NCBI GenBank assembly: GCA_964016885.1
Contig: OZ024741.1
Span: 377,270,001 to 377,334,000 of the forward strand
DNA: 64,000 nucleotides
Source of the DNA: Eledone cirrhosa
Lineage: Eukaryota
Direction: 5' to 3'
Shown: positions 3,998-55,352 of the stretch, piece by piece
How the letters are laid out: each line of letters starts with the position of its first letter
How positions within the stretch are numbered: the stretch's first letter is position 1
Made by a program: the position numbers and the translations under genes
Notes under the pieces: generated by a model
Database searches by the model: none
What the model saw: the letters and a program-made list of their open reading frames with translations, nothing else
Told to the model about the DNA's origin: nothing

Positions 3998-4305
3998 AAT
4001 AATAATAATAGTAGTAATAAACAAATGAGACGGTTACTTTAGTTCTTCCCTCTTTATTTTATTATACGTATTTCAATGATGAATGGCTTCTATATAAAAT
4101 CAGTTAAAAGTGTTCTCTCTGTCAAAGTGTATTTACATCTCCTGTGGAATTTATCTGAAGTGAACAGGTTTGACTGATGTTATACATAAGCCATTAATCT
4201 TTGAAATAGGTATAATAAAATAAATATATATTATTATTATAATAAAACTCCGGATAAACATAAAACGTTGAGTGCTTGACATTTGTTATATAAAAACCGA
4301 GGTCT

Positions 4306-5090
4306 TTATACATCGGACAAAGAGGACGCCGTATGGGGGACCGTTTTGCTGAACATTTAAGGGACATACGACTCGGTTTGGATAATCCTGTCGCCCGTAA
4401 TTTCTGTTGTCCTGGTCATTCTTCCCTACATATCTCAGTCATGGGTGTCCTTTTACATCATGGATTACAGGCCTCGCCCACCAGGGCTGAAAATAGTATG
4501 TTTCACTGCCTTGCGTCCAATCCCCTCTTGGACTCAACTCACCTCCACAATTCCTTTAATAGCCCGTGCATTATCACAGGCGCTTGTACATTCACCCATC
4601 GATTCCTATCGTTCTATCATGATCATAAACATCTGTTACAAATAATACAGACCGACAAAATATGCATACTCCACTGTTCCCTTCACTGTTAATATTAATA
4701 TACTTTTACTCATAGCTTCGTACGGACGTATAATAACACACATACATACACATACACACATACACACACATGCTAACGCACTTGCACAAGTATAGTTCTT
4801 TTACGAAACGGTCTTTTTCCATTTCAGGTCGAAGCGCTCCCTCATCCACTTATCTAACAAAGTATATCATACACAAAACGCCAGCACCAACATTTTCCCA
4901 AGAGATGTTAACATTTTTCCAATTCCAACCCGCCCGTCCCCTCAATCTATCTTATTTCTCATTCTTTCTCTGATGAAGGACTAGCGTCCGAAATATCAAG
5001 ACCCTCTTACTGCTATTTCAAGTGTTAACCTAATATATTCCTTCAATATACTGTACGATTCTGTTGTTATTTCTGTTTAGCTTTTACACA
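4306..5090 (+). mobile_element. Penelope-like element 3' fragment: GIY-YIG endonuclease remnant plus hammerhead-containing terminal repeat
   Basis: The frame from 4306 reads LYIGQRGRRMGDRFAEHLRDIR..NPVARNF..PGHS, the YIG...RF.EH motif of PLE GIY-YIG domains. A hammerhead core lies downstream at 4970, and the element ends at (CA)n. Confidence 0.8.
4966..5001 (+). ncRNA. Minimal type I hammerhead ribozyme (PLE type)
   Basis: CTGATGA (4970-4976), A, stem II GGAC-tagc-GTCC, GAAA, then T-ATC (minimal palindromic stem III, AUC triplet), then AAGA pairing loosely with the upstream TTCT. Confidence 0.65.
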
Positions 5091-18081: not shown

Positions 18082-18103
18082 CTATATATATATATATATA
18101 TAT

Positions 18104-18195
<92 letters not shown>
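18082..18195. repeat. (TA)n(GA)n microsatellite
   Basis: Directly visible. Confidence 0.95.
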
Positions 18196-18199
<4 letters not shown>

Positions 18200-18390
18200 G
18201 GTGCTCTGAAATAGCGATATATGAATGTATATATAGTGTATTTTGCAATACACTATATGCTTAATTAAAAGCATTTCGAAGACCTTACGCTATTGTTTTA
18301 GAGTAGTGACAGTCTCACTTACTTTATTTTCAGAAAACAGGGGAGATAAAGCTGACAAAGCTCTGTTTCGCACTTTTCGGCGGAGTAGTT

Positions 18391-18435
18391 ACCTTTGATA
18401 AGCACCAAACAGTGCGAAACAGAGCTCTGTCAGCT
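18391..18435 (+). ncRNA. Type I hammerhead ribozyme, U3-A8 variant (copy 1)
   Basis: acct-TTGATAA-GCAC-caaaca-GTGC-GAAAC-agagctct-GTC-agct; one mismatch in stem I. Confidence 0.75.
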
Positions 18436-18684
18436 TTATCTCCCCTGTTTGCTGAAAATTAAAGTAATTGAGACTGTCGATAATCTAAAACATAGCGTAA
18501 TCTCTTCGAAATGCTTTTAATTAAGCATACAGTGTATTGCAAAATACACTATATATACATTCATATATATATCGCTATTTCAGAGCACCAATTCTAATTT
18601 TCAATTTCTGCTTGACCGGCAACCGCTCTGTATAATCAGTTCCTGATTATTCCTAAAATTCTATAAGAATCAAACATTCCTGAT

Positions 18685-18775
18685 TTTCAGCAAACAGGCG
18701 GAGTAGTTAGCTTTGATAAGCACCACAAAGTGCGAAACAGAGCTCTGTCAGCTTTATCTCCCCTGTTTGCTGAAA
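18685..18775 (+). ncRNA. Type I hammerhead ribozyme, U3-A8 variant with extended stem I (copy 2)
   Basis: tttcagcaaacagg..AGCT-TTGATAA(18713)-GCAC-cacaaa-GTGC-GAAAC-agagctct-GTC(18747-18749)-AGCT..cctgtttgctgaaa. Confidence 0.85.
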
Positions 18776-18887
18776 ATTAAATTAAGTGTGACTGTAACTA
18801 CTGTAAAACAATAGCGTAAGGTCTTCGAAATGCTTTTAATTAAGCATACAGTGTATTGCAAAATACACTATATATACATTCATATAT

Positions 18888-18918
<31 letters not shown>

Positions 18919-21900
18919 CTTGTACATATACACACACACATGTGTGTGTTAGTGTGTGAGTGAGTTTTTTGTTGTTAGTTATATGGATTTGAAATAACTA
19001 CCAATTGATAATTATGCAAAATAGTTTTTTATTGGTTTGTTTTGTGTCCAAAAGCATTTACTAATTATGAGAAAATAGATTTAAAATCAATAATATATTT
19101 TTTTTGAATTGATATTCACCTTCAATTTCTTCTATTTCATATTTGTTATATTAATATTAATTATAAGTCTAAAATTGTTGAGTAAGTTTTGTTTATATTG
19201 CAACAATTCCCATGTTGAAAAAGTTCCTGAGACTTGATAAATAATCCTACTTGAAATATTAATTTCATATTTCAATTTACGTTGAGTTGAAAATTTAATT
19301 GCTTGTATATTTATAATGATATATTATTGAAAAGTTATCTGAAGACCGAGTCATGTGTTTAAAAACGATTTCAATTCTACGTGTACCCTATGGAAGTAAC
19401 TTAACATTTAATTTATGTGGACTCAATGCATTACATACGCGATAAATACTGGACTCGATTTAATTTCCAGCTATAGTTATTATTTACGTTGATATTGTAT
19501 ATCTACACGTCTGTAACCACTAAGAACAAGGTCTTAATTATTTAAGATATTTATTGAAGCGAAAAATAGAGGCGTAGATGGAGACTTCTTGCAATTATTA
19601 TGAAGGCTAAGCGTAAGTGAAATATATGCTGTGCAGATATCTCTAAAAATAAAATAGAAATAGAAATCCCATCCGATTTATATTTTTAGAATAAGAAAAC
19701 GAAACATTCAAACTTTCTATTCGTTTCTATCTCATTAGTTAATTGCGATTAGTCACCGTATTGTTCTTCTGTAATTTGCTATATTGTAAATTGAACATCA
19801 AACGATCAAAATGCACATGGCTGTTAACAAAAAATATATGTTACAAAATAACGTGTTGCCAAAACTATTGTATGATAATTCATTTACTTTAATAAAATTT
19901 CATTTTGAAAAGAAACATTCAATGAAATATACTTCGATAAAAAGACATGCCACAGTGTCAGAGTGTTGTTTAAACCCATTTTCCATGCATTTGGATATTC
20001 CTGGCGTATATTTCAGTATATAAGCAGCTTCATATCGTTTTATGGAAATAACATTAAACACATTTAAAAAAGCAATATTTAAATGTATTAGCTATTGTTA
20101 AATTTGACAACCCTTTTTGTCTTATATATTTTCTCACCCCTAAGTCTAATTATATCAGATTATATGGGTGTGATACGTCCCAATTACATGCTAGAGAGAA
20201 TATGCAAAATAGAAGGACCATACTGTTCACGTCACAAATAAGTTTTCTAAATTTCTCATGTGAAATTAAGAAACGTGCATCGAAATACTGGGCACGTGAA
20301 AATGCCAAATATGTTTGCTACTTTTCATGCACAAAATCAACATAATACCGAAACTGTTACCATATGTGGAACTGAGATTCGGAGAGAAAACTTTCGTCGT
20401 AGTCGCACAGTTACCGAATACTACCCTAAATTTAAGTTGTCTCACTAGAGACGGCATTCGATGAAGGTATATGAATTAAGAATCTAGAATATTGGAACCT
20501 TTTATTCCGTTGAATCCTTCTCCCACTTCAGTCCGCTTCAGGTCTAAGAAGAAATCACTAATCTCTACCGTATAGTAGTAGATTTTGGTGACATCTAATA
20601 TCTTCACATTCTACTGATGAAGGAAAATGTGTCTTACACTTGATCACTGCTCTATTGAAATGCCACTTCTACGACGTCGCAATGCTTCCCCCGTGCACGT
20701 ATGTGGACATTTATCCCAAGCCAATTACACTCGCGTTAGGGAGACAAATGATATTTGCTCATCTCATCAAAATCCTTAACGATGTCTGAAGACACCTGGA
20801 TGAAGTTGACAGCGAATCAAGAATTGAATTTATAAGCCAAGAACAACGTCCTGCTTAAGTCTGTATCGTGTTAGACGACAGTCCTTGAAGTCAGCATCTT
20901 CATACTCCTAGGTTACACATGGGTTTGAACAAGTAAAAGACATTTTATACCAACAAACATGAGGTTATTGTGAGTTTCTGTCATACATATGAGGAACGTC
21001 GATATTGACACTTTTCCTGTGAGTCATCAAGCATGCAATCTCTGTTGGCTACAATATTGCATCTACTGCTGATATACAAAATATGCGCCCATCGGCCCAT
21101 CTTTTTGCCTTTCGCATTGATGATGGCGGACAATGTATTCTTTACCGTTCATCGTTTGGCACATAGGTAGTATTAAATGCGACAAATAAGTATATGATGA
21201 AAGTTAATTCGTGTTGTTGTATTAAAAAAATTGGCCTACGTTGATTGAGATTAGACATGACTCATTGTACGATAGTAACAGACATGGCTGTGGGATTTCT
21301 TAAGAAAGCCATTCGAGACAGTTTGCCTGCCATATGAGAGGAGCTGGAATGAATGATACACTAATTACGCCCGTAAATAACATATTGTTCTCTTCTTTTG
21401 TTGAGAATCCCTTTACCATTCCTAAGTTGCCTGTTTCATTGACCACCTCAACATCATTTCTCCCTTTTGGATATTTCAACGAAATTGCAAGTATCATTTA
21501 ATCATGTTTATAATACACTTGCACATTCTCTCTTGCAGACACTGGTATAAAGTGAATCTTTCCCTGGGGTTCGTCACATTTGGCCTTATTACAAATGCAA
21601 ACCCACTTTCCTATATCGTCTTCAGCCGTGATTTCGATCAAGTCTGATTTGACCAGAAGTATAGACGGCTCAGATTATCTAGGTTTTCTACTGGATGCAG
21701 CCAATTATCACGGACAATATCAAACGTATTTCATACACCACCGTTTAACCTGTATTCAAACATTTTCGAGACTCAAATAAAAAATAACCTTCATCAATTG
21801 GAACGAACATGTACGCATACGAAATGTTCTGAACCCTGAACTTTGTGGTTTTAAGCCTTTTCAATTTCATTCGGGATTATAGCCAGGGGACTCGCCCTAC

Positions 21901-22365
21901 GGTTGCAATCTCGCTATTCCCTGTCTCGGGTGTTTTCTCAGTCCCGCTACTCTAACTATATTTTGTACACCTCTCACCAGTTAGCACTGTTACAATTGTG
22001 TAATAACGCCATGCCTTTCGTACACAATTATCACAGGCGATGTTGAGGTGATATGCATTTTGATTTCCATATTTCCAATTGCACTCACGAAATCTGTTGT
22101 TTAGTAGAGGCTGTTGAGTTCTGTTTTGGATTTATTTTCTTTGTTTTTTTCTCTGTATATGAAATGAACAAAACGGAGACAAATTCCATTGTTATTCTCT
22201 GTTATCAATATGTAAAACATATTTTCATATCTCGGGGGTAAAACCGTTCTTATCTGAAATAATCATTTCTCTTTATAATATCCCTTCCCTGAACTAATAT
22301 TATTTACATTAATTGCATACATTAAAATATAATAGTGTGAATATGTTGAATTTTCTGTCAATTTA

Positions 22366-22777
22366 TCACTACTCTAAAAAACAATAGCTTATGGTCTTCA
22401 AAATGCTTTTAATTAAGCATAAAGTGTATTGCAAAATACATTATATATACATCCATATATATATTGCTATTTCAGAGCTCCAATTCTAATTTTTAATTTC
22501 TGCCTGACCAACAACCGTTCTGCATAATCGGCTCCTGATTATTTACTAGAATTCTATAAGAATATAACATCAGTCATCTCGGTAGACAGGTGGGAGTAGT
22601 TAGTCTTGATAAGCTTCAACAAAAGCGAAACAAGGCCTTGTCGGCTTATCTCCCCTGTTTGCTGAGATCAAAGTAAGTGAATTTGTCACTACTCTAAAAA
22701 ACAATAGCTTACGGTCTTCAAAATGCTTTTAATTAAGCATAAAGTGTATTGCAAAATACATTATATATACATCCATA
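22366..22777 (+). mobile_element. Second locus of the retrozyme-like family (~1.3 copies of a 320-nt unit)
   Basis: Direct repeat tcactactctaaaaaacaatagc...catccatata at 22366 and 22686 (period 320). Homologous to 18380-18887 and ends in (TA)n. Confidence 0.8.
22576..22668 (+). ncRNA. Type I hammerhead ribozyme, U3-A8 variant (covaried copy 3)
   Basis: atctcggtagacagg..AGTC-TTGATAA(22606)-GCTT-caacaa-AAGC-GAAAC-aaggcctt-GTC(22640-22642)-GGCT..cctgtttgctgagat. Confidence 0.85.
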
Positions 22778-22789
22778 TAAATGTATGTT

Positions 22790-28072
<5,283 letters not shown>

Positions 28073-36783: not shown

Positions 36784-39700
36784 ATGGCCGTACTCAGAAA
36801 TGGCAGTATAAATGCACGTGGCTCGGGGTCATCTTGGAAGCAGGGTCACCTGCTCAACGACCTCAGGTCACTAAACATAGATGTGGTGGCCATCAGTGAG
36901 ACCAGAATCTCCGAAGAACAAGCCTTCGCGCGGATCTTCGGCGGCTACGATGTATACGCATTTCCCAGCCGTCCAGGATCGGGGGAGGGGTTGCCGTCCC
37001 TTTTCGGAGAGGCTTGGATCTCGCCATACGGGCCATCTTCCTAAACCCAGAAGTTAAGTCGGTGGTGCAGGACGTGACCGGCAGCAAAGGCAATGCTTTC
37101 AGGCTAGTAGCCCTCTATGCCCCAACAGGGGCAGGACGGCCAGATTTCTTCAGACGTCTAGAGACCTTTCTTGGAAGGTCTTTAGTGTTAGTGGGCGACT
37201 GGAACGGTATCTTGGATGCACGCTCGGATTTTGTGGGGATAGTGGATAGGGGAGGAGGGTGCAAGAGCCTCACCAACCTGCTCAGACGTTTTAAACTGTC
37301 TGATAGGTATCGATTAGATCACCCGAATGTGCCAATGTGGACATGGACAAACCACATCACGTCATCTAGATCGTATCTCGATAGGGTATTCTGCCGAGAA
37401 CTAGATAAGGCTAGTATAAGTTGTCTACAATTTAAAATAGTCGACTACACAGACCACAAATTTGTGATCTGTGAGATCGACATAGACAGACTTCATAGAC
37501 AAGGGCCTAGTTACTGGAAGCTGAACGCATCTTTCCCGGCGCGCAAAGCCTACAGAGACCGGATTAGCGTATTAGTTAAGCGGGCGTTGACGGGAGCGGT
37601 CGTCAACAACAGGTGGTGGTTCGCCGTGAAAAGGGCAATTAAAGTAGAGTCGATTAGGTTTAGCAAGGAGTAGTGATAGAGGAAATAGAGTAGAGGGAGA
37701 GCTAGTTAGAAAGCTAGAAGAGGCGTTTAGGACAGGCATCGCACTCGACCAATTCTTCAACGCAAAACACGAAGGCTGCGTTGTCAGAGCTAGAGCGCGT
37801 GCTCTGAAACACGAGGGGGTAAAAGCCGTTCAATGGGCCCAGGTGGCAGAGGCGCGACGTGGCAACAAAGCCACAATTCGGTCTTTGTCTGACCAAAACG
37901 GGTGCGTGATGCTCGAACCCGAGCGGATCTGTGAAGCTTTTCAGCAGTACTTTGCTGAATTGTTCGGGAGCAGTGGCAGCCGGATCGGGGCATGGACTTC
38001 AGTGCATACCTCGACTGACTGCCTCGGCTCTCGACGACCGCAGCACAGTGTTGCGAAAAGCCAATAGCAGCCGGTGAAATACGGGAAGCGATGGCTAACT
38101 GCACAAGGGTTAAATCGCCAGGTTTGCATGGTCTGCCCTACGAGATTTATGCATTTATACCAGACTTGATCGGTGACCTCATGGCAGACGTCTACTGCAA
38201 CTGGCAGCAAAACGGGAGCATTCCCAGTTGTGTGAGCCGGGGAGCAGTTGCGCTGCTGAGAAAAGACCCGAAAAAGGGGGATGTTATCGATAATGTCAGG
38301 CCATAACACTGCTAAACGCAGAGATCAAGATTTTGACCAAGGTGTTAGCAACGAGGTTGGCGCTTGTCATCTAGGGTCTGGTGGGAGAGGCGCAGACATG
38401 TGCCATTCCGGACAGATCCATACACGACAACTTCCACCTCATGCGATACATCATAGAGAGGGTGGTTAAGGAACCTGGCACGGGTGGGGTCCTTATCAAC
38501 TTGGATCAATACAAAGCATGCGATAGGGTCGATCATCGGTACCTGGCGACAGTCCTCGCGGTCGGTTTCATGCCCGTTTTCAGGGTTTGGATCGCAGCAA
38601 TGTACAGCGACATCTGCTCAGTTTTGAGGTTGCCGGTCACTTGTTGCACCCGTTCAGCATCATGCGCTCAGTCCGCCAGGGTTGTCCCCTCTCGTCCCTC
38701 TTGTACGTATTGGCTCTCGAGCCGTTAGTGCACAAACTGGGTGCGATGAGGGGCGTCCGACGCGAACTAGGATGCGGGAAATCCGATGCTCGGCACCGCG
38801 CTCAAGGAATACGGAGCGGTGACAGGAGCAAAGATAAACCAAGAAAAGTCGGTGGGCTTGCAGCTCGGCACCTGGAGAGGCAAGTCCATGCCGTCCGACA
38901 GCGTCGTGGGGCGCTGGACGGACGAAACCGTTAAATTGCTCGGGGTCTGGTTCGTACCGGACATCCAGATGGAGAAAAACTGGAACGAGGTGACGAGCAG
39001 GGTGGCCTCCCTCACCCAGAAATGGGCCGAGAGGAAGCTGTCCCTGAAAGGTCCGGCGGAGGTGGCGAATGCGTACATCGTATCCGTCATCTGCTACCGC
39101 CGCACATTCGTCCATTGCTCCAGCCCAACTCTCACCAAAATGGAGCGCCTCCTCTTCCGCTTTTTGTGGAAGGGACGCGCTCCCAAATGTCAGACGATCC
39201 ATCTGCTGTCAACACGCGTTGCGTGGAGGACTCGGCATGCCATGGCTGATGATGCGCAAACATGCGCTGAGGCTGCGACATCTCTGGTGCTTCCTTGACG
39301 GTGAATAGGTGTGGTCGCCGTTCGCAAGGCACGTTTTCCCACAGTTCGTCTCCTTGACGGAGCTGATGTCCTGGGTCAGAAAAAGACCGAGGGATAGCGC
39401 TTGAAGATTAGAATTTCTCCAGGCGCTCACTAACCTCTGCCAGCTGGGCACCAGTATCGGTGGAACATCCACCTCGGCGTTCTATAGAGGACTAGTGGAG
39501 GGGAAGAGCGACGACATTCTCGGAGATCCTGTCGTCGAAGAAGATCAGCTGTTTGCTCTCTTCCGGAGAACTTTCAGCGCAGAGCCTATGGATAACTTCC
39601 AAAAATCCCTGGCCTGGCAGTGCTACCGGGGAGCGCTGACGATTCGAGATAAGCTCTACAGGCACGGAAGTCCCGTCAGCCGAGCCTGTCCGAGATGCGC

Positions 39701-40103
39701 GCTTAGTGACGAAACCGTCGTGCACGCACTAGTTCAGTGCCCGAGCATTGATGACTTGTGGAGCTATGTCGAACAGTTGCTGTCGCGTGTAGGACTGATC
39801 CGGTTATCGACTGAGTTCATTGTGCAGATGGTCTCAGCGTCTTCCTTCGAGGAAGAAGGGAAGGCGGTTTTCATCTGCTTGGTGGCCATGGCGAAAGAGA
39901 TTGTGTGGTGGACAAGGTTAAAATGGTTAAAGACAGACACTCTCCTCTTCGGCGAATCCCTAATTAACTTTTTCAAGTTTCACTTGAAGAGGAAAATCAG
40001 GGTGGAGAGGCAAGTGCTGACTTCTAGCAAGTTTGTTGAAAGGTCGGTGAAGTTAGCGAGAATGGTCCGAGTGAACGGGTCCGCTCTGAATATACATCTG
40101 TAG
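36784..40103 (+). pseudogene. ORF2 (APE endonuclease-RT) of Tx1-like element A, multiply disrupted
   Basis: Starts MAVLRNGSINARG. Many frameshifts and stops; the YADD segment appears deleted near 38785. Confidence 0.88.
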
Positions 40104-45420: not shown

Positions 45421-48400
45421 TTGTTATTCCTTGAATCTCAGTCATTGATGTTGGTTAACTGGAAAGTCCGTTGGATTGAATATCAAGCCACTACATGCAG
45501 CCTCAGATATTCAGGACGTATCGGAGGGTTCTTGCTGTTCCAAGCAAGCATGCCTTTTGAAGCGTTCCAAAAAGCGTGAAGGGGCCGATTTTCTTTAACC
45601 ATCCCTGGAAACCTTTGGGGATAGTCCCCAGTGCGCCTATGACAATCGGGATCACTTTGACTTCATGGCAGTTCCAAATCCTTTTCACCTCCCACTTTAG
45701 GTCCTGGTATCGGTTAATTTTCTCCCTCTCCTTCTCTTGCACTCTCGTGTCGAACGGGCAGTCCACATCCACAATCAGGCACGATCTTTTTTCTTTGTCC
45801 ACAACCACCAGGTCAGGTCTATTGTGTTCCAGTTTTTTGTCCGTCTGTATCCTAAAATCCCACAGCACCTTCACCTGACTGTTCTCCATCACCGCCTCTG
45901 GCCTATGCTCATACCATTTCTCAGAATGTGGTAGATTGTTTACTTTGCACAGGTGCCAGTGGATCACCCTGCCCATCACATCGTGTCTCCAGCCCTTATA
46001 GTGGGTCTGGGCTAGGTGTTTACACTCGGACACAATGTGAGCCACAGTCTCCTCTCTCTCTCCACAGATCCTGCACAGTGGGCTAGCCTCCTCCTTGTAG
46101 ATATGGTGCTTCAACCACTTCCTTTTGAGGGCCTGCTCCTGCGCAGCCATTAGCATTCCTTCTGTAGCCTTTTTGAGGTCTCCTCTTCTCAACCAGTTCC
46201 ATGTCTGTGGATCTCTAAATTCAGTTTTCTCAAAGAAGGTACTATGAAGGGATTTTCCCTTAAGGCTGCTCTTCCTCCTTGATGTTATTTCCTCCTTGGA
46301 CATCCCCTGGCCTACTGTCCCCTCCTTCAGTACAGTTCTGAGCATTGGCTCCTTACTATAGGTCACGTATTTGTATAGGTTGTTTTTCTCCATCTGAACA
46401 CAGTCCTCTATGCTGATAAGACCTCTTTCACCCTCAGATCTCCTTAGGTAGAGTCTATCGACATCACTCCTCTTGTGGAACATGTTGTAGATAGTCAATA
46501 GCTTCCTAGTCTTCCTATCCATTTCTTTTTGTTCAGCAACATTCCATCTCAGAATTCCCGCACTGTACCTAATAATAGACACAGCTCGGGAATTTACTGC
46601 GCTTATGGCATTTCTGCTGTTCAGATGTGACTTCAATACGCTCCTTACTCTCCGAATGTATTCAGTTCTTAACAATTCCTTCATTTTTTTGTTCTTTATG
46701 CCATCAGCCTCCAGAACGCCCAAATACTTGTATCCTTCCTCAGAGTCAATTTCCTTTATCATCTCACCTGTTGGTATCTGGATCCCGTTACTTCTGCTCA
46801 ACCTACCCCTCTTCATCACAATGACTCCACATTTACCAATACCAAACTGCATACATATATCACTGCTGAAAATACGGACAGTGTCAACAAGCACATCCAA
46901 CTCCTTCTCACTTTTCCCGAAGAGCTTAAGATCGTCCATGAAGAGGAGGTGATTGATGGTAAGCTCTCCCCTTCCCAACTTGTATCCGGCTCTCACTTTT
47001 CGCAGCATAATGGTCAAGGGCATCAGGGCAAGGACAAACAACAGAGGGGACAGGCTATCTCCCTGGAAGATACCTCTCTTGATCTTCACGCTTCCCAAGG
47101 ATACTCCAGTTGATGTCAACTCTGTCTCCCAGGACCCCATACTCCTGCCCAGCAACTGTCTGATGTTATCTGCCACCCTGAAGACCTCCAGGCTTTTGGT
47201 GATCCAGGAATGAGGCACCATGTCAAATGCCTTTCTGTAGTCTATCCATCCCATGGCAAGATCAGTGTGTCTCCTCCTGCAATTCCCCATTACCATCTTA
47301 TCAATAAGTAACTGGTCCTTTTTACCACGTGACTTCTTTCGGCATCCTTTCTGTTCGTCCGGTAACAAGTTGTTTGTGTGGAGGTGATGGTAGATTTCCT
47401 CAGACACAATGCTCGTCAACAGTTTCCACATTACGGGCAGACATGTGATAGGTCTATAGTTGGTAACATCATTACCCTTGATTCGGCCTTTCATTATCAG
47501 AACTGTGGTACCTTTTGTCAACCACTCTGGCACCTCACCCGACACCAAGCAGTCATTGAACATGGCCGTCAGCTTCGGCTGGAGGGATGTTAAATGTTTA
47601 ATCCAATACCCCTGCACACCATCTGGGCCTGGTGATTTCCAGTTGGTTAGTTTTTTGGCCTGCCCCTTAAGAGTTTCAACTGTGATACTCAAATCAGTTT
47701 GTTGTTGTGCCTGCTCACCGATCTCCCTCTGTACTGTCTCAATCCACCCTGCCTGGGCATTGTGTCTAACATCCTGCTCCCATATTCCTCTCCAGAATGT
47801 TTTAGTTTGCTCCGCCCCAGGGATCAAGTCGTTGCCTCTTTCTTTCCCCTCAAGCTCTCCAAACAGCATCTTCTGGTTGTTGTCGAACATGCGGTTCTGT
47901 TTATACTGACTGACTCTGTTCTCGTATCGCCTGATTTTTGCACTCTTTGCTACAATGCGTTGCTTCAGTTCCTCTATGATAATATTTAGCTTTTTCCTCC
48001 TAGTTTTGTATTTTATTTCCAGTCTATTTTTAGTGCCTATGTTTTTTAGTGTCCCATTCAGTAGTGACTCAAGCTTTCCTATGTCATTTCTCATTTCCCC
48101 GATTTGCCCACTCAGTCGCTTCTTCCACCACGGCTCTGCTCTTTCTTGTCTGTTGTTTCCTCTCGCTTTTATACCAAGTAGTTTCCTCACCGTATTTGCT
48201 GTTGCTTTGAGGATATTGTTGCACTGGTGAAGACTCCTCGCCTCAAGGTATGGGATGACTTTGTTTACCTTAGCTGTTGTTTCTTTTAACTTGTTCCTGT
48301 CTACAAATCTTAGGTTCATAGGTCTCCCACTATCATTGTTCAATTCATCTACCACTAGATTTAGGATGTCAACCGAATCTTGTCCTAGCCCGTCAGCATT

Positions 48401-49973
48401 CATCTCCTCAGTGGCCGTATCTCTGTTCCAGGTATTATTTATCTCAGTATTCAGATCATTGTCTGCTTCGGGTGGTTCCTCCGTTCTCAGAACCTCCTCA
48501 CCTTCATTTCCCACCGGCTCGCTTGTCTGGTATACTACACCCGCCATCTCCAAGCCATTCTCTCTGCTCGGTTCCTCCAGTTCCAGCTCGCTTATCCACC
48601 CATTAGTTCTTATTACCCGAGCCTGCCCGGCCAATTTTTGTTCATCTAATTTAAATAAACCAATCTCGTTCCAGATGTTATGCATCCGTCTCCTGTAGCC
48701 CCTCTCCTTGGGGTTACTTTTCAGGTAGCATTGCATAACAGTTCTATTCAATTCTTTCGTCCAGTTGGTTCTGGCCCCTTTCCTTCTTCTTCCTCCAACA
48801 TCAGCAGTATTTCGTTGACAGTCAGGTTCCTGCTGCTGAGCCAGGGGGCACCTGTTGGGTGAGAGTCTGTCACATGACGTTCTAGTCTCCATTTCACCGT
48901 TATTCGAACTGTTTATGTTCGATATTTAAACACTCTTATCGAGGATTGGCGAATGTATGTTTACATAGCCATCTGTGGATCCGCCATCCCACTTGGCCCT
49001 TGTGTGGCATTATCACCACGCTGTATACGGACACACATAAACAAACAAACACACGGGCAGAAAGGGCCCCAAAAATGAATAAGCATAAGTTTCATTGTAA
49101 TGTAGTATTCGAATGTCTGACTTAGTTTTTTGTTTTTTAAGTTTTACTTTTTCCCCCCTCTTCTCTGTCCGTCCGCCTGCTTCTCTCTTCATTCTTATTT
49201 TCTTTACGTTTTGGGGGTTTCTTTTTTTGTTTTTGTTTTTCTCTGTTTGTTTTTCTCGTTTTTTGCTGTTGTTGCTGTGCTGCTTTGGTTTTGTTGTTTG
49301 TTTTTTCTTTTTTCTTTTGAGTCTATCTATATATTTTGATGCCTTCCTCTTTGTTAGTAGTAGGGATTCTATAATGTGGAAGTAGTAGTAGCAGCCAGCA
49401 GGGAGAAGTGGGAGAGGGCGGCGTTGGCGATACTGAGACAGTGGTGGTGGTGATGTCGATACCGAGGCAGTGGTGGCGGTGATGCGACCGTATTACTGTA
49501 GTGATGGTGCTGTAGCGGTGGCAGCAGCAGTGAAGGAGTCAAGGGGTGGTGGCGGCGGTGATGGGATAGTGGTGGTAATGATGGCCGTAGTGAGCGGTGG
49601 CGGTAAAGGTGAAAATGCTGTTGTGTTTAGTGTACACAGATGATGGGGTGGGTGGGGTATCTAGTTTCTGGTGTTGGTGAGTTTAGCTGTCCTATATAGT
49701 GTAGCCAGAGGAGAGGAGGGGGGGGGTCTTCTTCTTCCATTTATAGCCATTTTTTTTTTTGGATATACAGTGTACAATACAAAGTTGAATATTTGAATAT
49801 TTGAGCCTTATAACAATATATTTTGGGTCCGAATTTTTTGGGGCTCAAGCCGGGTGCTTTACGTAGCATTTGTACTAAGAGTTGTTAATTCACAAATGAT
49901 TTAAATATGTTAAAAATTCAAAACTTACGGGAGCGACTTCATGACCTCCGTCACCTCGTGCGTCTTCTTCCCT
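45421..49973 (-). mobile_element. R4/Dong-clade element, full-length apparently intact copy
   Basis: ~1.1 kb 5' UTR, single uninterrupted ORF, ~80-nt 3' UTR, (TAA)n on both sides. Confidence 0.97.
45503..48892 (-). CDS. Non-LTR retrotransposon polyprotein: RT, CCHC knuckle and restriction-like (PD-D/ExK) endonuclease, R4/Dong clade
   Basis: 1129 aa open: [94 protein letters not shown]. Confidence 0.96.
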   Translation of the reverse strand: METRTSCDRLSPNRCPLAQQQEPDCQRNTADVGGRRRKGARTNWTKELNRTVMQCYLKSNPKERGYRRRMHNIWNEIGLFKLDEQKLAGQARVIRTNGWISELELEEPSRENGLEMAGVVYQTSEPVGNEGEEVLRTEEPPEADNDLNTEINNTWNRDTATEEMNADGLGQDSVDILNLVVDELNNDSGRPMNLRFVDRNKLKETTAKVNKVIPYLEARSLHQCNNILKATANTVRKLLGIKARGNNRQERAEPWWKKRLSGQIGEMRNDIGKLESLLNGTLKNIGTKNRLEIKYKTRRKKLNIIIEELKQRIVAKSAKIRRYENRVSQYKQNRMFDNNQKMLFGELEGKERGNDLIPGAEQTKTFWRGIWEQDVRHNAQAGWIETVQREIGEQAQQQTDLSITVETLKGQAKKLTNWKSPGPDGVQGYWIKHLTSLQPKLTAMFNDCLVSGEVPEWLTKGTTVLIMKGRIKGNDVTNYRPITCLPVMWKLLTSIVSEEIYHHLHTNNLLPDEQKGCRKKSRGKKDQLLIDKMVMGNCRRRHTDLAMGWIDYRKAFDMVPHSWITKSLEVFRVADNIRQLLGRSMGSWETELTSTGVSLGSVKIKRGIFQGDSLSPLLFVLALMPLTIMLRKVRAGYKLGRGELTINHLLFMDDLKLFGKSEKELDVLVDTVRIFSSDICMQFGIGKCGVIVMKRGRLSRSNGIQIPTGEMIKEIDSEEGYKYLGVLEADGIKNKKMKELLRTEYIRRVRSVLKSHLNSRNAISAVNSRAVSIIRYSAGILRWNVAEQKEMDRKTRKLLTIYNMFHKRSDVDRLYLRRSEGERGLISIEDCVQMEKNNLYKYVTYSKEPMLRTVLKEGTVGQGMSKEEITSRRKSSLKGKSLHSTFFEKTEFRDPQTWNWLRRGDLKKATEGMLMAAQEQALKRKWLKHHIYKEEASPLCRICGEREETVAHIVSECKHLAQTHYKGWRHDVMGRVIHWHLCKVNNLPHSEKWYEHRPEAVMENSQVKVLWDFRIQTDKKLEHNRPDLVVVDKEKRSCLIVDVDCPFDTRVQEKEREKINRYQDLKWEVKRIWNCHEVKVIPIVIGALGTIPKGFQGWLKKIGPFTLFGTLQKACLLGTARTLRYVLNI

Positions 49974-52250: not shown

Positions 52251-55200
52251 TGGCCATATTAAGAGGAGGAAGTTTAAATGTTCGCGGCCTGGGGGCCACC
52301 CTGGAAGCAGGGTCGCCTGCTCAACGACCTCCGGTCGCTGGAAATGGATGTGATTGCCGTAAGCGAGACCAGACTTTCCGACACGCGCGTTCTAGCCCCC
52401 ATTTTCGACGACTATCAGATCTTCGCATCTGTTAGCTGGCGGGGAATGGGGGGTGAGGTGGAAGTGCTGTTTAGGAAAGGACTGGATATCGAGGAGGGAT
52501 ATTTTTGAAATGAGCACATTTTGCGTGCCAGAAGATTTGCTTATGGTCCGAATGTCACTCAATTCCTTCAAAGAAATTCGAGAGAGCTTTCCTCAAGACG
52601 TGGGAACCCCGAATGTGAAACCCACATCCAGATTTTTAAAGGGGTTCCCAAAAGAAACCCCACCAACCATGGAGGTCGAACCACCCGACCTTCACAAGAC
52701 CCGGACGGTAAGTTGGTGGTCTTGGATGTGAGCACTAGCGAAGGTGGTGCCTTTAGACTGCTGGCCGTCTACGCCCCTACAGGGGCCGGACAACCTGACT
52801 TCTTTAGGCGCCTGGAGACCTTTCTAGGTACGTCTCGCCCTTTACTGGTTGCGGGGGACTGGAATGGCATCTTAGACGCACGCTGGGATTGTGTGGGAGT
52901 AGCCAATAGGAGCGGGGGATGCAAAAGCCTCAAGCACCTACTCAGCCGGTTCCAACTGTCTGACAGGTATCGACTAGATTTCCCCAATGTGCCAGTATGG
53001 ACATGGACCAACCGAATGGGGTCATCTAGATCGTATATAGACAAGATCTTCATTAGGACAATAGATAGAAATAGTGTGGGCTGTCCACTTTTTAAAACGG
53101 TCGCCTATTCAGATCACACATTTGTTATCTGCACGGTCGACCTAAATAAAACGCGTTGGTTAGGACCGGGTTTCTGGAAGCTGAACATGTCATTTCCGGC
53201 ACGTAAGGCTTACAGGGACCGAGTCAACAATTTAGTTAAGCAAAAGTTGACAGGGGGGATCATCAACAACAGATGGTGGGTGGCTCTCAAAAGAGAGATT
53301 AGAGTAACTTCGATAGAGTTCAGCAAAGAACTAGCGTTAGACAAAAATAGAAAGGAGGGGGAGCTGGTAGATAAGTTAGACGAGGCTATTTGTAGTGGCA
53401 TAACAATTGACGTGCTAGCGGCGAGAATGGCATTAGACCATTTCTTCAATGCCAAACACGAAGGTTGCATTGTCAGAGATAAGGCGCGTGCGCTGAGAAA
53501 CGAGGGAACTAAAGCTGTTCGATGGGCCCACGTGGCGGAGGCGCAGCGTGGTAATAAAACCACAATTCGGTCTTTGGCGGACCGAGATGGACACGAGATA
53601 AGCGATTCCAAGCGGATGTGTGAGGCCTTTCGCCAGCACTTTGCTCGATTGTTCAGGGAGAGTGGCGAGTCAGAGAGAGTAGCGGATTTCAGTCCCTACT
53701 GTGACGGCTTGCTGCGCATCTCGATTACTTCAGCCGAAATTCAGGACGCCCTTGTCGGCTGCATGAGGCGCAAGTCACCCGGTTTGGATGGCCTGCCCTA
53801 CGAGCTTTACGTAAATATGCCAGACTTGTTCTTCGAACTCCTCGAAGCACTCTACTGCAACTGGCAGCAGAATGGGAGTATTCCCAGTTCTGTGAGCAGG
53901 GTAGTGGTGACGCTGATAAGGAAAGACGAGAACAAGAGGGATACATTAGACAACTTCAGGCGCATAACTCTGCTCAACACAGAGTTTAAGATTTTGGCCA
54001 AGGTGTTAGCAAAGAGATTGGCGCTTGTCGTCGAGGATTTGGTTGGGGAGGCCCAAACTTGCGCAATCCCAGCCAGGTCCATACACGACAATCTCCACCT
54101 CATGCGATACATCATAGAGAGGGTAGGGTGTAAATCTGGCTTCGGTGGGGCACTGATCAATTTAGATCAATCGAAAGCATTCGATAGGGTCGACCATCGG
54201 TATCTGGAGTTTGTCTTCAAAGCAGCTGTCTTCGGCCCTGTCTTTAGAAGCTGGATCGTTGCAATGCACAGCGGCACACGCTCGGTGGTCAAGGTTAATG
54301 GCCACCTCTCGGAACCATTTCGGCTCTCCTGATCGGTCCGTTCTGTACGTATTGACTATCGAGCTTTTACTGCCCCCGTCCGCGCCTCGTCAAGTTGGAA
54401 CGGCTCCTCTTCAAATTCTTGTGGAGGGGACAAGTTCCGTTGGTGAGGCGGTCCCTCTGCTGCCAGCACCCTCTACGCGGAGGGCTGGGCTTGCCGTGGC
54501 TAAGGATGCGCAGACATGCGTTGAGGCTGCTACATCTCCAGATATTCTGCCTCAATGGTGAACAGGTGTGGTCGCCGTTTATCAGACGGGCCTTTCCGCA
54601 GCTCATTTCTTTGACTGAGCTGCATTCCTGGGTCAAGAAGAGACCGAGACTGGGTGACTGGCACCTGGAACGTTGCCAGGCACTCACTGCCCTCTACCAA
54701 GTGGGCAATGCAATCAGTGGAACTTCCACTCTCGAGTTCTATAGAGGATTAGTGGTGGGCAAGTGCGATGACGCATTCTGAGAATCTTTGGGCCTCGAGG
54801 AAGTCGAACTGACCAGTCTGTACAGGAGGACGTTTGAGCCGGGGACTATGGACAATTTCCAGATATCCCTCGCTTGGCAGTGCTACCGGGGGGGGGGGGG
54901 CACTGCCGGTTCGGGATAAACTCTACAGGCACGGAAGTGCTGTCAGACGGACCTGCCCAAGATGCGCACAGAACGACGAAACCGTTCTGCACGCACTTGT
55001 CCAATGCCCGTGCATTACTGACTTGTGGAGTTATGTCGAACAGCTACTGTCGCGTGTGGAACGAATCCGGCTATCGGCCGAGTCCATAGTGAAGATCGAT
55101 CCACCGCCTTCCTTAGGTCAGGAAGAGCAGGAAATGTTCCTCTGTCTGGTGGCAGTTGCGAAAGAGATTATATGGTGGACCAGGTTGAAAGGACTAAAGA

Positions 55201-55352
55201 CAGACAATTTTCTCTTCGGCCAATCCCTCATCAACCTCTTGGAAGGTGAGGGTGGAGAGAGAAGAGCAGCCCCCCAGTACATTTGCTAAAAGGTGGGTGA
55301 ATGTTGCGAGAATGGCTCGTGTGAATGGGCCTGCTCTGACCATGCACCTATA
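52250..55352 (+). pseudogene. ORF2 (APE-RT) of Tx1-like element B, disrupted
   Basis: MAILRGGSLNVRGL, VIAVSET, AGDWN, YIDKIF, YSDH, KSPGLDGLP, LDQSKAFDRVDH. The QGCPLS/YADD region is deleted near 54340-54370. C-terminal CPRC..HALVQC. Confidence 0.9.

What the first reader, a model, noticed from the sequence alone, without database searches (positions are those of the whole stretch)
18194..22777. Retrozyme-like family with a U3-A8 variant hammerhead, supported by covariation in all three stems
Seen: three copies (cores at 18395, 18713, 22606) of stem I-TTGATAA-stem II-GAAAC-stem III-GTC-stem I'. Between loci, stem II changes GCAC/GTGC to GCTT/AAGC, palindromic stem III changes AGAGCTCT to AAGGCCTT, and stem I changes AGCT/AGCT to AGTC/GGCT. 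The distal stem I changes tttcagcaaacagg/cctgtttgctgaaa to atctcggtagacagg/cctgtttgctgagat, with differences that are compensatory or G-U. The core stays invariant, and unit periods are 318 and 320 nt. Known: the canonical core is CUGANGA with a C3-G8 pair, U3-A8 is a rare compensatory variant, and metazoan non-LTR retrozymes are short tandem units with type I hammerheads that give circular RNAs. Inference: this is a non-autonomous circular-RNA retroelement family that CUGANGA-only searches would miss.
Basis: partly seen in the sequence, partly recalled or inferred. Interest (0 to 1): 0.88.

Follow-up and report, generated by a model that had tools for sequence, protein, structure and literature searches.

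The report
Retrozyme family with swapped hammerhead core
A 320-base non-coding repeat with thousands of copies in this animal genome carries a predicted self-cutting "hammerhead" RNA whose core base pair swapped once from the usual C-G to a rarer, already published U-A, and its insertions have the shape left by the Penelope-type jumping genes that likely copy it; it is a new variant of a known kind of element, and cutting and RNA circles are untested.

Summary
Observation confirmed. Three U3-A8 type I hammerhead cores lie at 18395, 18713 and 22606, in two insertions of a non-coding 318-320-nt unit (3,269 genome matches against 33 control). New here: sister subfamilies of the same unit keep C3-G8, and a tree built without those two columns needs one switch (98/92), so the core pair itself covaries. 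Thirteen of 33 pairs show two-sided changes. Insertions carry a Penelope (PLE) footprint: 5' truncation, 5' inversion, (TA)n targets and two fixed 3' ends, about 141 and 167 nt past the cut site, one on each arm in 46 of 53 two-armed insertions. Hydra-clade PLEs of this genome follow the same rule (10 of 10) and also come with U3-A8 or C3-G8 hammerheads, but share no detectable sequence with the unit. Folding predicts a hammerhead that is off as a monomer and on in tandem. Cleavage, expression and circles are untested. Animal retrozymes, their proposed PLE link and natural U3-A8 are all in print, and this scan noted similar elements on other DNA. New variant of a known kind; interest 0.42.

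The parts
18083..18196 (.). (TA)n then (AG)n microsatellite at the left end of insertion 1
   Evidence: Sequence; TRF (AG)45 at 18106-18196
18194..18380 (-). Inverted, 5'-truncated arm of insertion 1 (reverse complement of 18405-18595). Holds GAAAC, stem III and the cut site but not the UUGAUAA half; ends at the distal end site (B, unit position 164)
   Evidence: blastn 91% over 192 nt
18379..18887 (+). Forward arm of insertion 1: 1.6 tandem units, period 318, ending at the proximal end site (A, unit position about 137-141) in (TA)n
18391..18435 (+). Hammerhead copy 1, U3-A8 core at 18395, predicted cut after C18431; damaged (C-C mismatch in stem I, distal 5' arm lost at the inversion junction)
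18432..18749 (+). One full unit, cut site to cut site: 318 nt, 35% GC, non-coding (longest stop-free run 43 codons), folds better than shuffles as a circle (z -7.9)
18683..18777 (+). Hammerhead copy 2, complete: 16-bp distal stem I, internal loop, 4-bp proximal stem I, U3-A8 core at 18713, stem II, palindromic stem III, predicted cut after C18749
18869..18918 (.). (TA)n target at the right end of insertion 1
   Evidence: TRF
22357..22782 (+). Insertion 2 (young subfamily B): single 5'-truncated arm of 1.3 units, period 320, ending at site A
   Evidence: (L031 1283-1708)
22576..22668 (+). Hammerhead copy 3, complete: U3-A8 core at 22606, predicted cut after C22642
22762..23013 (.). (TA)n target at the right end of insertion 2
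   Evidence: TRF
24100..28070 (+). Not part of the finding, approximate ends: a broken Hydra-clade Penelope-like element (RT and C-terminal GIY-YIG, in pieces at about 25176-27239), with an inverted 5' arm and an end in (TA)n; its family carries a putative U3-A8 minimal hammerhead in the pLTR (decayed in this copy, near 27900-28010)

Best explanation
This is a non-coding 312-322-nt repeat family with a predicted type I hammerhead ribozyme, present in thousands of copies, that is likely a non-autonomous non-LTR retrozyme copied by the enzyme of a Penelope-like element of the Hydra clade. Shown: the unit, its copy number, the covariation, the C3-G8 and U3-A8 subfamilies, the insertion anatomy, and the presence of Hydra PLEs with the same anatomy. 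Inferred mechanism: (1) read-through transcripts of tandem copies fold so that two palindromic stems III pair with each other and form a double hammerhead, which cuts after GUC; (2) a released monomer, probably ligated to a circle by a host ligase, refolds so that core bases 3-5 pair with the 5' half of stem III and the ribozyme is off; (3) a Hydra RT/GIY-YIG protein nicks (TA)n and primes cDNA at one of two fixed sites about 141 or 167 nt past the cut site, reads across the cut site (so the template is a circle or an uncut multimer) and stops at random, giving 0.6 to more than 6 units; (4) the other target strand primes a second cDNA at the other fixed site, giving the inverted arm. The core pair most likely switched once from C3-G8 to U3-A8, and the U3-A8 lineage then became the majority. 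My odds: non-autonomous PLE-mobilised element 0.9; U3-A8 copies cleave, at least as dimers, 0.75; circular RNA is the template 0.6; a Hydra family is the partner 0.65; the off-helix is selected 0.35.
For: Copy number: 3,269 against 33 control. Core read without conditioning on it: of the first 100 of 2,200 matches, 86 U3-A8, 8 C3-G8, 6 mismatched (hand count); in the most divergent subfamily E, 89 C3-G8 and 0 U3-A8 of the first 100 of 217 (hand count). Tree with columns 3 and 8 masked: all 19 U3-A8 rows lie on one side of a branch, 98/92. Structure on 56 copies: 95.5% of cells paired against 39-50% for slid controls; 13 of 33 pairs with two-sided changes, including all 4 of stem II and the 3-8 pair (U-A 41, C-G 12, other 3). 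Non-coding. Ends: 134 of 143 outer 3' ends in 82 insertions fall at two sites, 1 at the cut site; 110 of those 134 run into (TA)3, against 2 of 21 5' ends and 234 of 1,886 flank positions. Two-armed insertions: 46 A+B, 4 B+B, 3 A+A of 53 (binomial p 4e-8). Local PLEs have the Hydra motifs RWK, DKT, CxCX5C and no CCHH, end in (TA)n at two alternative sites, A+B in 10 of 10 two-armed copies that could be called among 30 loci, and one family is 98-100% identical between copies with a 784-codon open frame. Folding: the off-helix or another inactive fold beats the hammerhead fold in 14 of 14 monomers (0.7-7.2 kcal/mol); in 3 of 4 tandem pairs the best fold pairs the two stems III with each other. 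U3-A8 ribozymes were active in vitro according to PMC3088659 section 8.
Against: No cleavage or RNA data. In a related study only 1 of 9 genomic retrozyme dimers cut in vitro, and PLE minimal hammerheads cut poorly. The covariation counts copies, not events: the 3-8 swap is one event, and the measure 'pairs with a change on both sides' does not beat the shuffle (340 of 500). A small U3-G8 offshoot has itself spread to at least two loci (4 of the first 100 of 171 matches, with a linked loop change), so a Watson-Crick 3-8 pair is not strictly needed for an insertion. No sequence homology links the unit to three PLE pLTRs (scores 79, 50, 69 against shuffle maxima 96, 81, 74); Naiad PLEs also prefer (TA)n and were not examined here. 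The window's own tandem pair does not fold into the double hammerhead (13 kcal/mol worse), because copy 1 is damaged. The direction of the swap rests on rooting with subfamily E; a tree without E needed 2 changes. The loci are best BLAST hits and first pattern hits on one contig, not a random sample, and at least two duplicate pairs remain among the 82.
Confidence: 0.8

Rival explanations
1. Same element and same PLE mobilisation, but through linear read-through transcripts; the hammerhead only trims 5' ends or cuts weakly, and no circle is involved. Tandems come from tandem donors or from template switching.
For: Most insertions are short (median about 550 nt) and could be copied from a linear 1.5-2-unit transcript. 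Weak in vitro activity is common in this class. Naiad PLEs were reported to give tandem and inverted insertions without canonical hammerheads.
Against: A run of at least six near-identical 320-nt units (98-100%) sits in one insertion that ends at sites A and B (L033-L037), as rolling reverse transcription would give. Circles are shown for coral, mussel and axolotl retrozymes. The long distal stem I holds the two cut ends together.
Confidence: 0.3
2. The hammerhead is a dead relic in the U3-A8 lineage; the stems are kept for another reason (RNA stability, RT binding), and U3-A8 is two neutral changes that hitch-hiked.
For: The swap is one event. A U3-G8 offshoot spread a little. Monomer folds hide the core.
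Against: Across at least six U3-A8 sublineages that changed stems I, II and III, no sublineage lost a catalytic base: departures in the first 100 unconditioned matches are scattered, apart from the small U3-G8 offshoot. The two changes fall on exactly the tertiary pair known to tolerate them, and the same swap separates local PLE families.
Confidence: 0.12
3. The unit is only the terminal repeat (pLTR) of a coding PLE not yet found, and these copies are its truncated ends.
For: Most PLE insertions are 5'-truncated and keep only a terminal repeat; the anatomy is that of PLEs.
Against: In the 110 loci mapped, the sequence upstream of the hammerhead is unit sequence up to the truncation or inversion point. 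PLE protein matches occur in 10 of 82 loci, as diverged pieces at no fixed place. Three PLE pLTRs do not align. A descent from a pLTR long ago is not excluded.
Confidence: 0.05
4. A DNA-level repeat (minisatellite, MITE or Helitron-type element) in which the hammerhead-like fold is incidental.
For: Local tandem runs exist.
Against: Fixed 3' ends with random 5' ends and inversions are the pattern of target-primed reverse transcription. The structure covaries on one strand and includes the catalytic pair.
Confidence: 0.03

Closest known systems
Metazoan non-LTR retrozymes (Cervera and de la Pena 2020, PMC7229834; parts 2 and 3 of 6 and keyword passages read, supplements not read)
   Same: Short (150-450 bp), low-GC, non-coding tandem units with a type I hammerhead, no LTR, PBS or PPT; thousands of copies; PLEs proposed as partner; dimer-dependent cleavage in axolotl.
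   Different: Majority core is U3-A8, with C3-G8 sister subfamilies; mostly 1-2 units with an inverted arm in (TA)n; two fixed 3' ends; RNA and cleavage not shown here. In the parts read, that paper does not describe U3-A8, microsatellite targets or inversions.
Animal retrozymes as non-autonomous PLE derivatives (Li, Clavereau, Pollet 2026, bioRxiv 10.64898/2026.07.22.740005; parts 1 and 3 of 5 read, supplements closed)
   Same: Co-occurrence with PLEs; hijacking of PLE enzymes proposed.
   Different: There the link is sequence homology to pLTRs in Xenopus; here no homology was found and the link is shared insertion anatomy with Hydra PLEs.
U3-A8 hammerheads: Perreault et al. 2011 (PMC3088659, section 8 and keyword passages read); Schistosoma mansoni Cercyon PLE minimal hammerheads (Cervera and de la Pena 2014, PMC4209133, parts 1 and 2 of 4 read)
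   Same: The same compensatory core pair; about 1,300 motifs in one animal genome.
   Different: The Schistosoma motifs are minimal hammerheads, mostly single; here the motif is a full type I hammerhead with a long stem I in a tandem non-coding unit, and both states occur within one family.
Hydra-clade Penelope-like elements (Craig et al. 2021, PMC8557442 section 11, keyword passages, supplement parts 1 and 2 of 59; preprint passages)
   Same: (TA)n targets, 5' truncation, partial tandems, inverted 5' copy, a tail at one end only, hammerhead in the terminal repeat.
   Different: The unit codes for nothing. The Hydra hammerheads listed in their File S2 all begin CUGA-N-GA; two Hydra families here read UUGA-A-AA.

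Membership tests
Type I hammerhead ribozyme | Core (C/U)UGAN(G/A)A, GAAA, UH with three stems in type I order | tested here: met
   U3-A8 variant
Type I hammerhead ribozyme | Watson-Crick pair between positions 3 and 8 | tested here: met
   94 of the first 100 unconditioned matches are U-A or C-G; one switch on the tree; a small U3-G8 offshoot exists
Type I hammerhead ribozyme | Covariation in stems I, II and III | tested here: met
   two-sided changes in stem I (1 proximal, 5 distal), stem II (4 of 4), stem III palindrome (2); few independent events
Type I hammerhead ribozyme | Tertiary contact between loop 2 and the stem I loop | tested here: inconclusive
   Loop 2 and the stem I bulge align to Rfam HH9 but the score is below gathering, and a C3-G8 copy got no HH9 match
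Type I hammerhead ribozyme | Self-cleavage after H17 | not testable with these tools
   needs an in vitro assay
Non-LTR retrozyme | Non-coding unit of 150-450 nt, GC under 50%, one type I hammerhead per unit | tested here: met
   318 and 320 nt, 35% GC, no frame over 43 codons
Non-LTR retrozyme | Head-to-tail tandem copies, dispersed in the genome | tested here: met
   up to six or more units at L033-L037
Non-LTR retrozyme | Expressed as linear and circular RNA | not testable with these tools
   no RNA holder listed
Non-LTR retrozyme | Target-site duplication longer than 4 bp, when present | tested here: inconclusive
   hidden by (TA)n flanks
PLE-mobilised non-autonomous element | 5' truncation, inverted 5' arm, tail at one end only, microsatellite target | tested here: met
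   definition
PLE-mobilised non-autonomous element | Sequence shared with the pLTR of an autonomous partner | tested here: not met
   no alignment above shuffles to three Hydra pLTRs; other PLE families not examined
Autonomous Penelope-like element (for the unit itself) | RT plus GIY-YIG reading frame | tested here: not met
Hydra-clade PLE (for the candidate partners) | RWK and DKT motifs, CxCX5C linker, C-terminal GIY-YIG without CCHH, (TA)n target | tested here: met
   proteins of L142 and L151 read by eye against the definition; no tree with published Hydra proteins was built

The most novel reading that the evidence does not exclude
A natural experiment on the hammerhead core: one retrozyme family swapped C3-G8 for U3-A8 once and the swapped form took over, because base 3 has a second job in a helix that silences the monomer circle, so that a weaker or better gated ribozyme spreads better. 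The same swap in co-resident Hydra PLEs, and the shared rule of one proximal and one distal end per insertion, would name Hydra RT/GIY-YIG as the enzyme that copies retrozyme circles by priming twice at two defined sites.
Probability: 0.25. Interest if true: 0.68.

Novelty: new variant of a known kind. Interest (0 to 1): 0.42.

Why it matters
Which enzyme moves animal retrozymes, and whether through a circle, is open in the papers read (PMC7229834, PMC8557442, the 2026 preprint). This family gives a countable footprint (two fixed priming sites, one per arm, in (TA)n) that matches Hydra PLEs of the same genome, one of which is very young with an open frame, so the question can be tested with a named pair. 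It also offers matched natural C3-G8 and U3-A8 ribozymes in one scaffold, and shows that descriptors that demand CUGANGA would miss most copies of this family (3,269 against at most 619 with one pattern shape) and the motif of two Hydra families (870 matches). None of this is a new kind of system.

Tried and rejected
Rfam at gathering scores: 0 matches in the window; at E up to 10 on four loci, only HH9 fits the hammerheads, the other 113 of 116 rows are microsatellite or inverted-repeat noise. RNA evidence: no RNA holder listed; laying four contig runs showed no ends or levels; neither counts for or against. Pfam on four PLE frame pieces of the window: 0 families; clade assigned by motifs instead. 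I first took the window's PLE for a Naiad; rejected because its endonuclease is C-terminal. Homology of the unit to Hydra pLTRs: not above shuffles; the blastn matches in PLE loci are retrozyme copies inserted there. A shared CTAAT before (TA)n at the distal end of the unit and of the youngest Hydra family, and an 11-nt match across the core between that family and subfamily C, were seen after the fact and are not counted as evidence. Target-site duplications could not be read. No covariance model or R-scape run was made; pattern searches and pair counts were used instead. Two papers recalled as relevant (dimeric PLE hammerhead variants; kinetics of 3-8 exchanges) were not held, so nothing is taken from them; one mistyped id fetched an unrelated paper. 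Literature searches for a prior description: 'hammerhead'+'U3-A8' gave 1 paper, 'hammerhead'+'U3A8' 0, C3U/G8A none on this point, 'retrozyme'+'cephalopod' and 'hammerhead ribozyme'+'Penelope'+'octopus' 1 paper each, on PLE clades; Dfam and Repbase could not be searched, so the repeat may be catalogued there.
Full report
1. The observation. The window holds three TTGATAA cores on the + strand at 18395, 18713 and 22606, each followed by a 4-bp stem II, GAAAC, an 8-nt palindrome and GTC. The copies at 18713 and 22606 are complete type I hammerheads with a 4-bp proximal stem I, an internal loop and a 15-16-bp distal stem I. The copy at 18395 has a C-C mismatch in stem I and has lost its distal 5' arm. 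Periods are 318 and 320. Rfam gives nothing at gathering scores, but Hammerhead_HH9 aligns end to end to all three copies at about 23 bits.

2. The family. The genome (G000, 3.0 Gb, an animal by its repeats; the host was not determined) holds 3,269 matches to the U3-A8 pattern against 33 for the reversed control. DNA searches gave 1,067 and 1,982 first-look candidates, of which 40 each were scored; subfamily B copies are 97-99% identical in the hammerhead, so it is young. The same pattern with a canonical core gave 619 matches against 187 control; 17 of the 20 loci fetched were the same unit at 73-88% identity with CUGA-N-GA. A still more divergent subfamily E (about 76% identity, period 312) turned up inside PLE loci and has 217 matches, control 0.

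3. The core pair. Reading the core between flanks, without asking for it, gave 86 U3-A8, 8 C3-G8, 3 U3-G8, 2 C3-A8 and 1 C3-U8 among the first 100 of 2,200 matches (hand count). In subfamily E the first 100 of 217 gave 89 C3-G8, 0 U3-A8 and 11 singly changed (hand count). A tree of 31 copies chosen across subfamilies, with columns 3 and 8 masked, puts all 19 U3-A8 rows on one side of a branch (98/92), with E among the C3-G8 rows; an earlier tree of 53 of 103 copies without E needed 2 changes. So the pair switched once; C-G to U-A is the likely direction if E roots the tree. Against strictness: a U3-G8 haplotype with a linked loop change sits at two separate loci (4 of the first 100 of 171).

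4. Covariation. On 56 of 111 complete copies, picked by hand to cover the subfamilies, 95.5% of cells pair, against 39-50% when partners are slid; 13 of 33 pairs have two-sided changes: all four of stem II, one of proximal and five of distal stem I, two in the stem III palindrome, and 3-8. Cells count copies, not events, and the number of such pairs does not beat the shuffle (340 of 500).

5. A predicted switch. In all 14 monomers folded, an inactive fold beats the hammerhead fold by 0.7-7.2 kcal/mol; in 11 of them G5 pairs with C15.2 at probability 0.9 or more. This helix joins bases 2.3 to 5 with the 5' half of stem III; 93% of its cells pair across the 56 copies, and base 3 meets G or A so that no subfamily has a C-A mismatch. 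In 3 of 4 real tandem pairs the best fold instead pairs the two palindromes with each other, within 0-2.2 kcal/mol of the full double hammerhead; the window's own pair fails because copy 1 is damaged. Dimer activation through palindromic stem III is established. These energies ignore tertiary contacts, and the helix may be a by-product of two palindromes, so it is a hypothesis.

6. How it inserts. Of 110 loci, 105 had a unit cluster at the centre and 82 remained after removing overlaps (at least two duplicate pairs remain; the sample is best hits and first hits on one contig). Of 143 outer 3' ends, 69 fall at site A (126-148 nt past the cut, 57 at 141) and 65 at site B (160-180, 33 at 167); one falls at the cut site. 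(TA)3 follows 110 of these 134 ends, 2 of 21 5' ends and 234 of 1,886 flank positions; 5' ends are spread from 5 to 263. The exact figure 141 is partly an alignment effect, because the unit is TA-like there. Of 53 insertions with both arms ending at A or B, 46 are A+B, 4 B+B, 3 A+A (p 4e-8); 19 are single-armed and 10 could not be classed. Partial tandems, an inverted 5' copy and a tail at one end only are the described marks of PLE insertions. Because cDNA starts well past the cut site and reads across it, a cut linear monomer cannot be the template; a circle or an uncut multimer can. Circular templates for PLEs were proposed in PMC4209133.

7. The likely partner. A broken PLE lies at about 24100-28070 in the window; its protein finds 21,123 first-look candidates. 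Twenty longer loci fall in three families at 61-68% protein identity with the Hydra motifs RWK, DKT, CxCX5C and no CCHH. All three end in (TA)n at two alternative sites about 130-145 nt apart, A+B in 10 of 10 two-armed copies that could be called among 30 loci. Two families carry a putative minimal hammerhead with UUGA-A-AA in the pLTR, with covarying stems II and III (870 matches, control 0); its layout, with an extra U on each side of stem II, matches published Hydra hammerheads, whose listed cores are all canonical. RNAfold does not give this fold as its best, so it is less sure than the retrozyme motif. The third family, 98-100% identical between copies and with a 784-codon open frame, has a C3-G8 motif (read by eye). 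No pLTR aligns to the unit above shuffles, and Naiads also prefer (TA)n, so the partner is inferred from anatomy only.

8. What is known. Animal non-LTR retrozymes are short non-coding tandem units with type I hammerheads, expressed as circles in coral, mussel and axolotl (PMC7229834). A 2026 preprint derives them from PLEs and found cleavage in 1 of 9 dimers. Natural U3-A8 is reported in PMC3088659 and in about 1,300 Schistosoma motifs. My searches found no paper on a U3-A8 retrozyme family or on a 3-8 switch within one family; subscription journals, Dfam, Repbase, the supplements of PMC7229834, PMC3088659 and PMC4209133 and those of the preprint were not seen and may bear on this. Earlier notes of this scan describe U3-A8 retrozymes in TA microsatellites in this and other genomes; none matched this unit by sequence. 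They are unchecked and were read after my own reading was set.

9. Verdict. It works like a retrozyme and meets every sequence criterion of one that could be read; cleavage, expression and circles are untested. It is a new variant of a known kind. Its value lies in the in-family C-G to U-A switch, the parallel state in Hydra PLEs, and an end rule that names a testable partner. Interest 0.42.

Noticed in passing
window 24100-28070; L141-L170: Hydra-clade PLE families of this genome carry putative minimal hammerheads with a long stem II insert: U3-A8 in two families (870 matches, control 0), C3-G8 in a third, very young family with an open frame. The published Hydra list has only canonical cores.
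   Followed up: partly
L061, L080, L087; A sublineage (171 matches to one pattern) has an extra A between stem II and GAAA; within it a U3-G8 offshoot occurs at two loci.
   Followed up: partly
L027:1913-2014 (-): A U3-A8 copy with the short loop 2 and flanks of the C3-G8 subfamily: it sits next to the switch on the tree and may mark the earliest U3-A8 form.
   Followed up: partly
L150 (minus strand 347, 813, 1278), L151 1-1387, L154, L160: Other, unrelated hammerhead repeats with canonical cores in flanks, one in tandem with a period of about 465 nt: the genome holds several retrozyme-like families.
   Followed up: no
L128, L129, L137-L139: A subfamily E copy inserted in a PLE copy, repeated in a segmental array on contig C4 at 120-155 kb spacing.
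   Followed up: no
window 30800-63900: Many non-LTR retrotransposon frames (by eye: RT with a C-terminal restriction-like endonuclease, one open for 1,140 codons at 45503-48925 on -, and AP-endonuclease/RT pieces at 36900-40100 and 52500-55300); labels are recalled, not searched.
   Followed up: no
window 4294-4692: A GIY-YIG-like frame piece of another PLE type (by eye; Pfam gave no match).
   Followed up: no
window 18194-18595: The inverted arm and the forward arm form a near-perfect hairpin of about 190 bp if read through; with most sampled insertions two-armed, the family could be a large source of double-stranded RNA.
   Followed up: no
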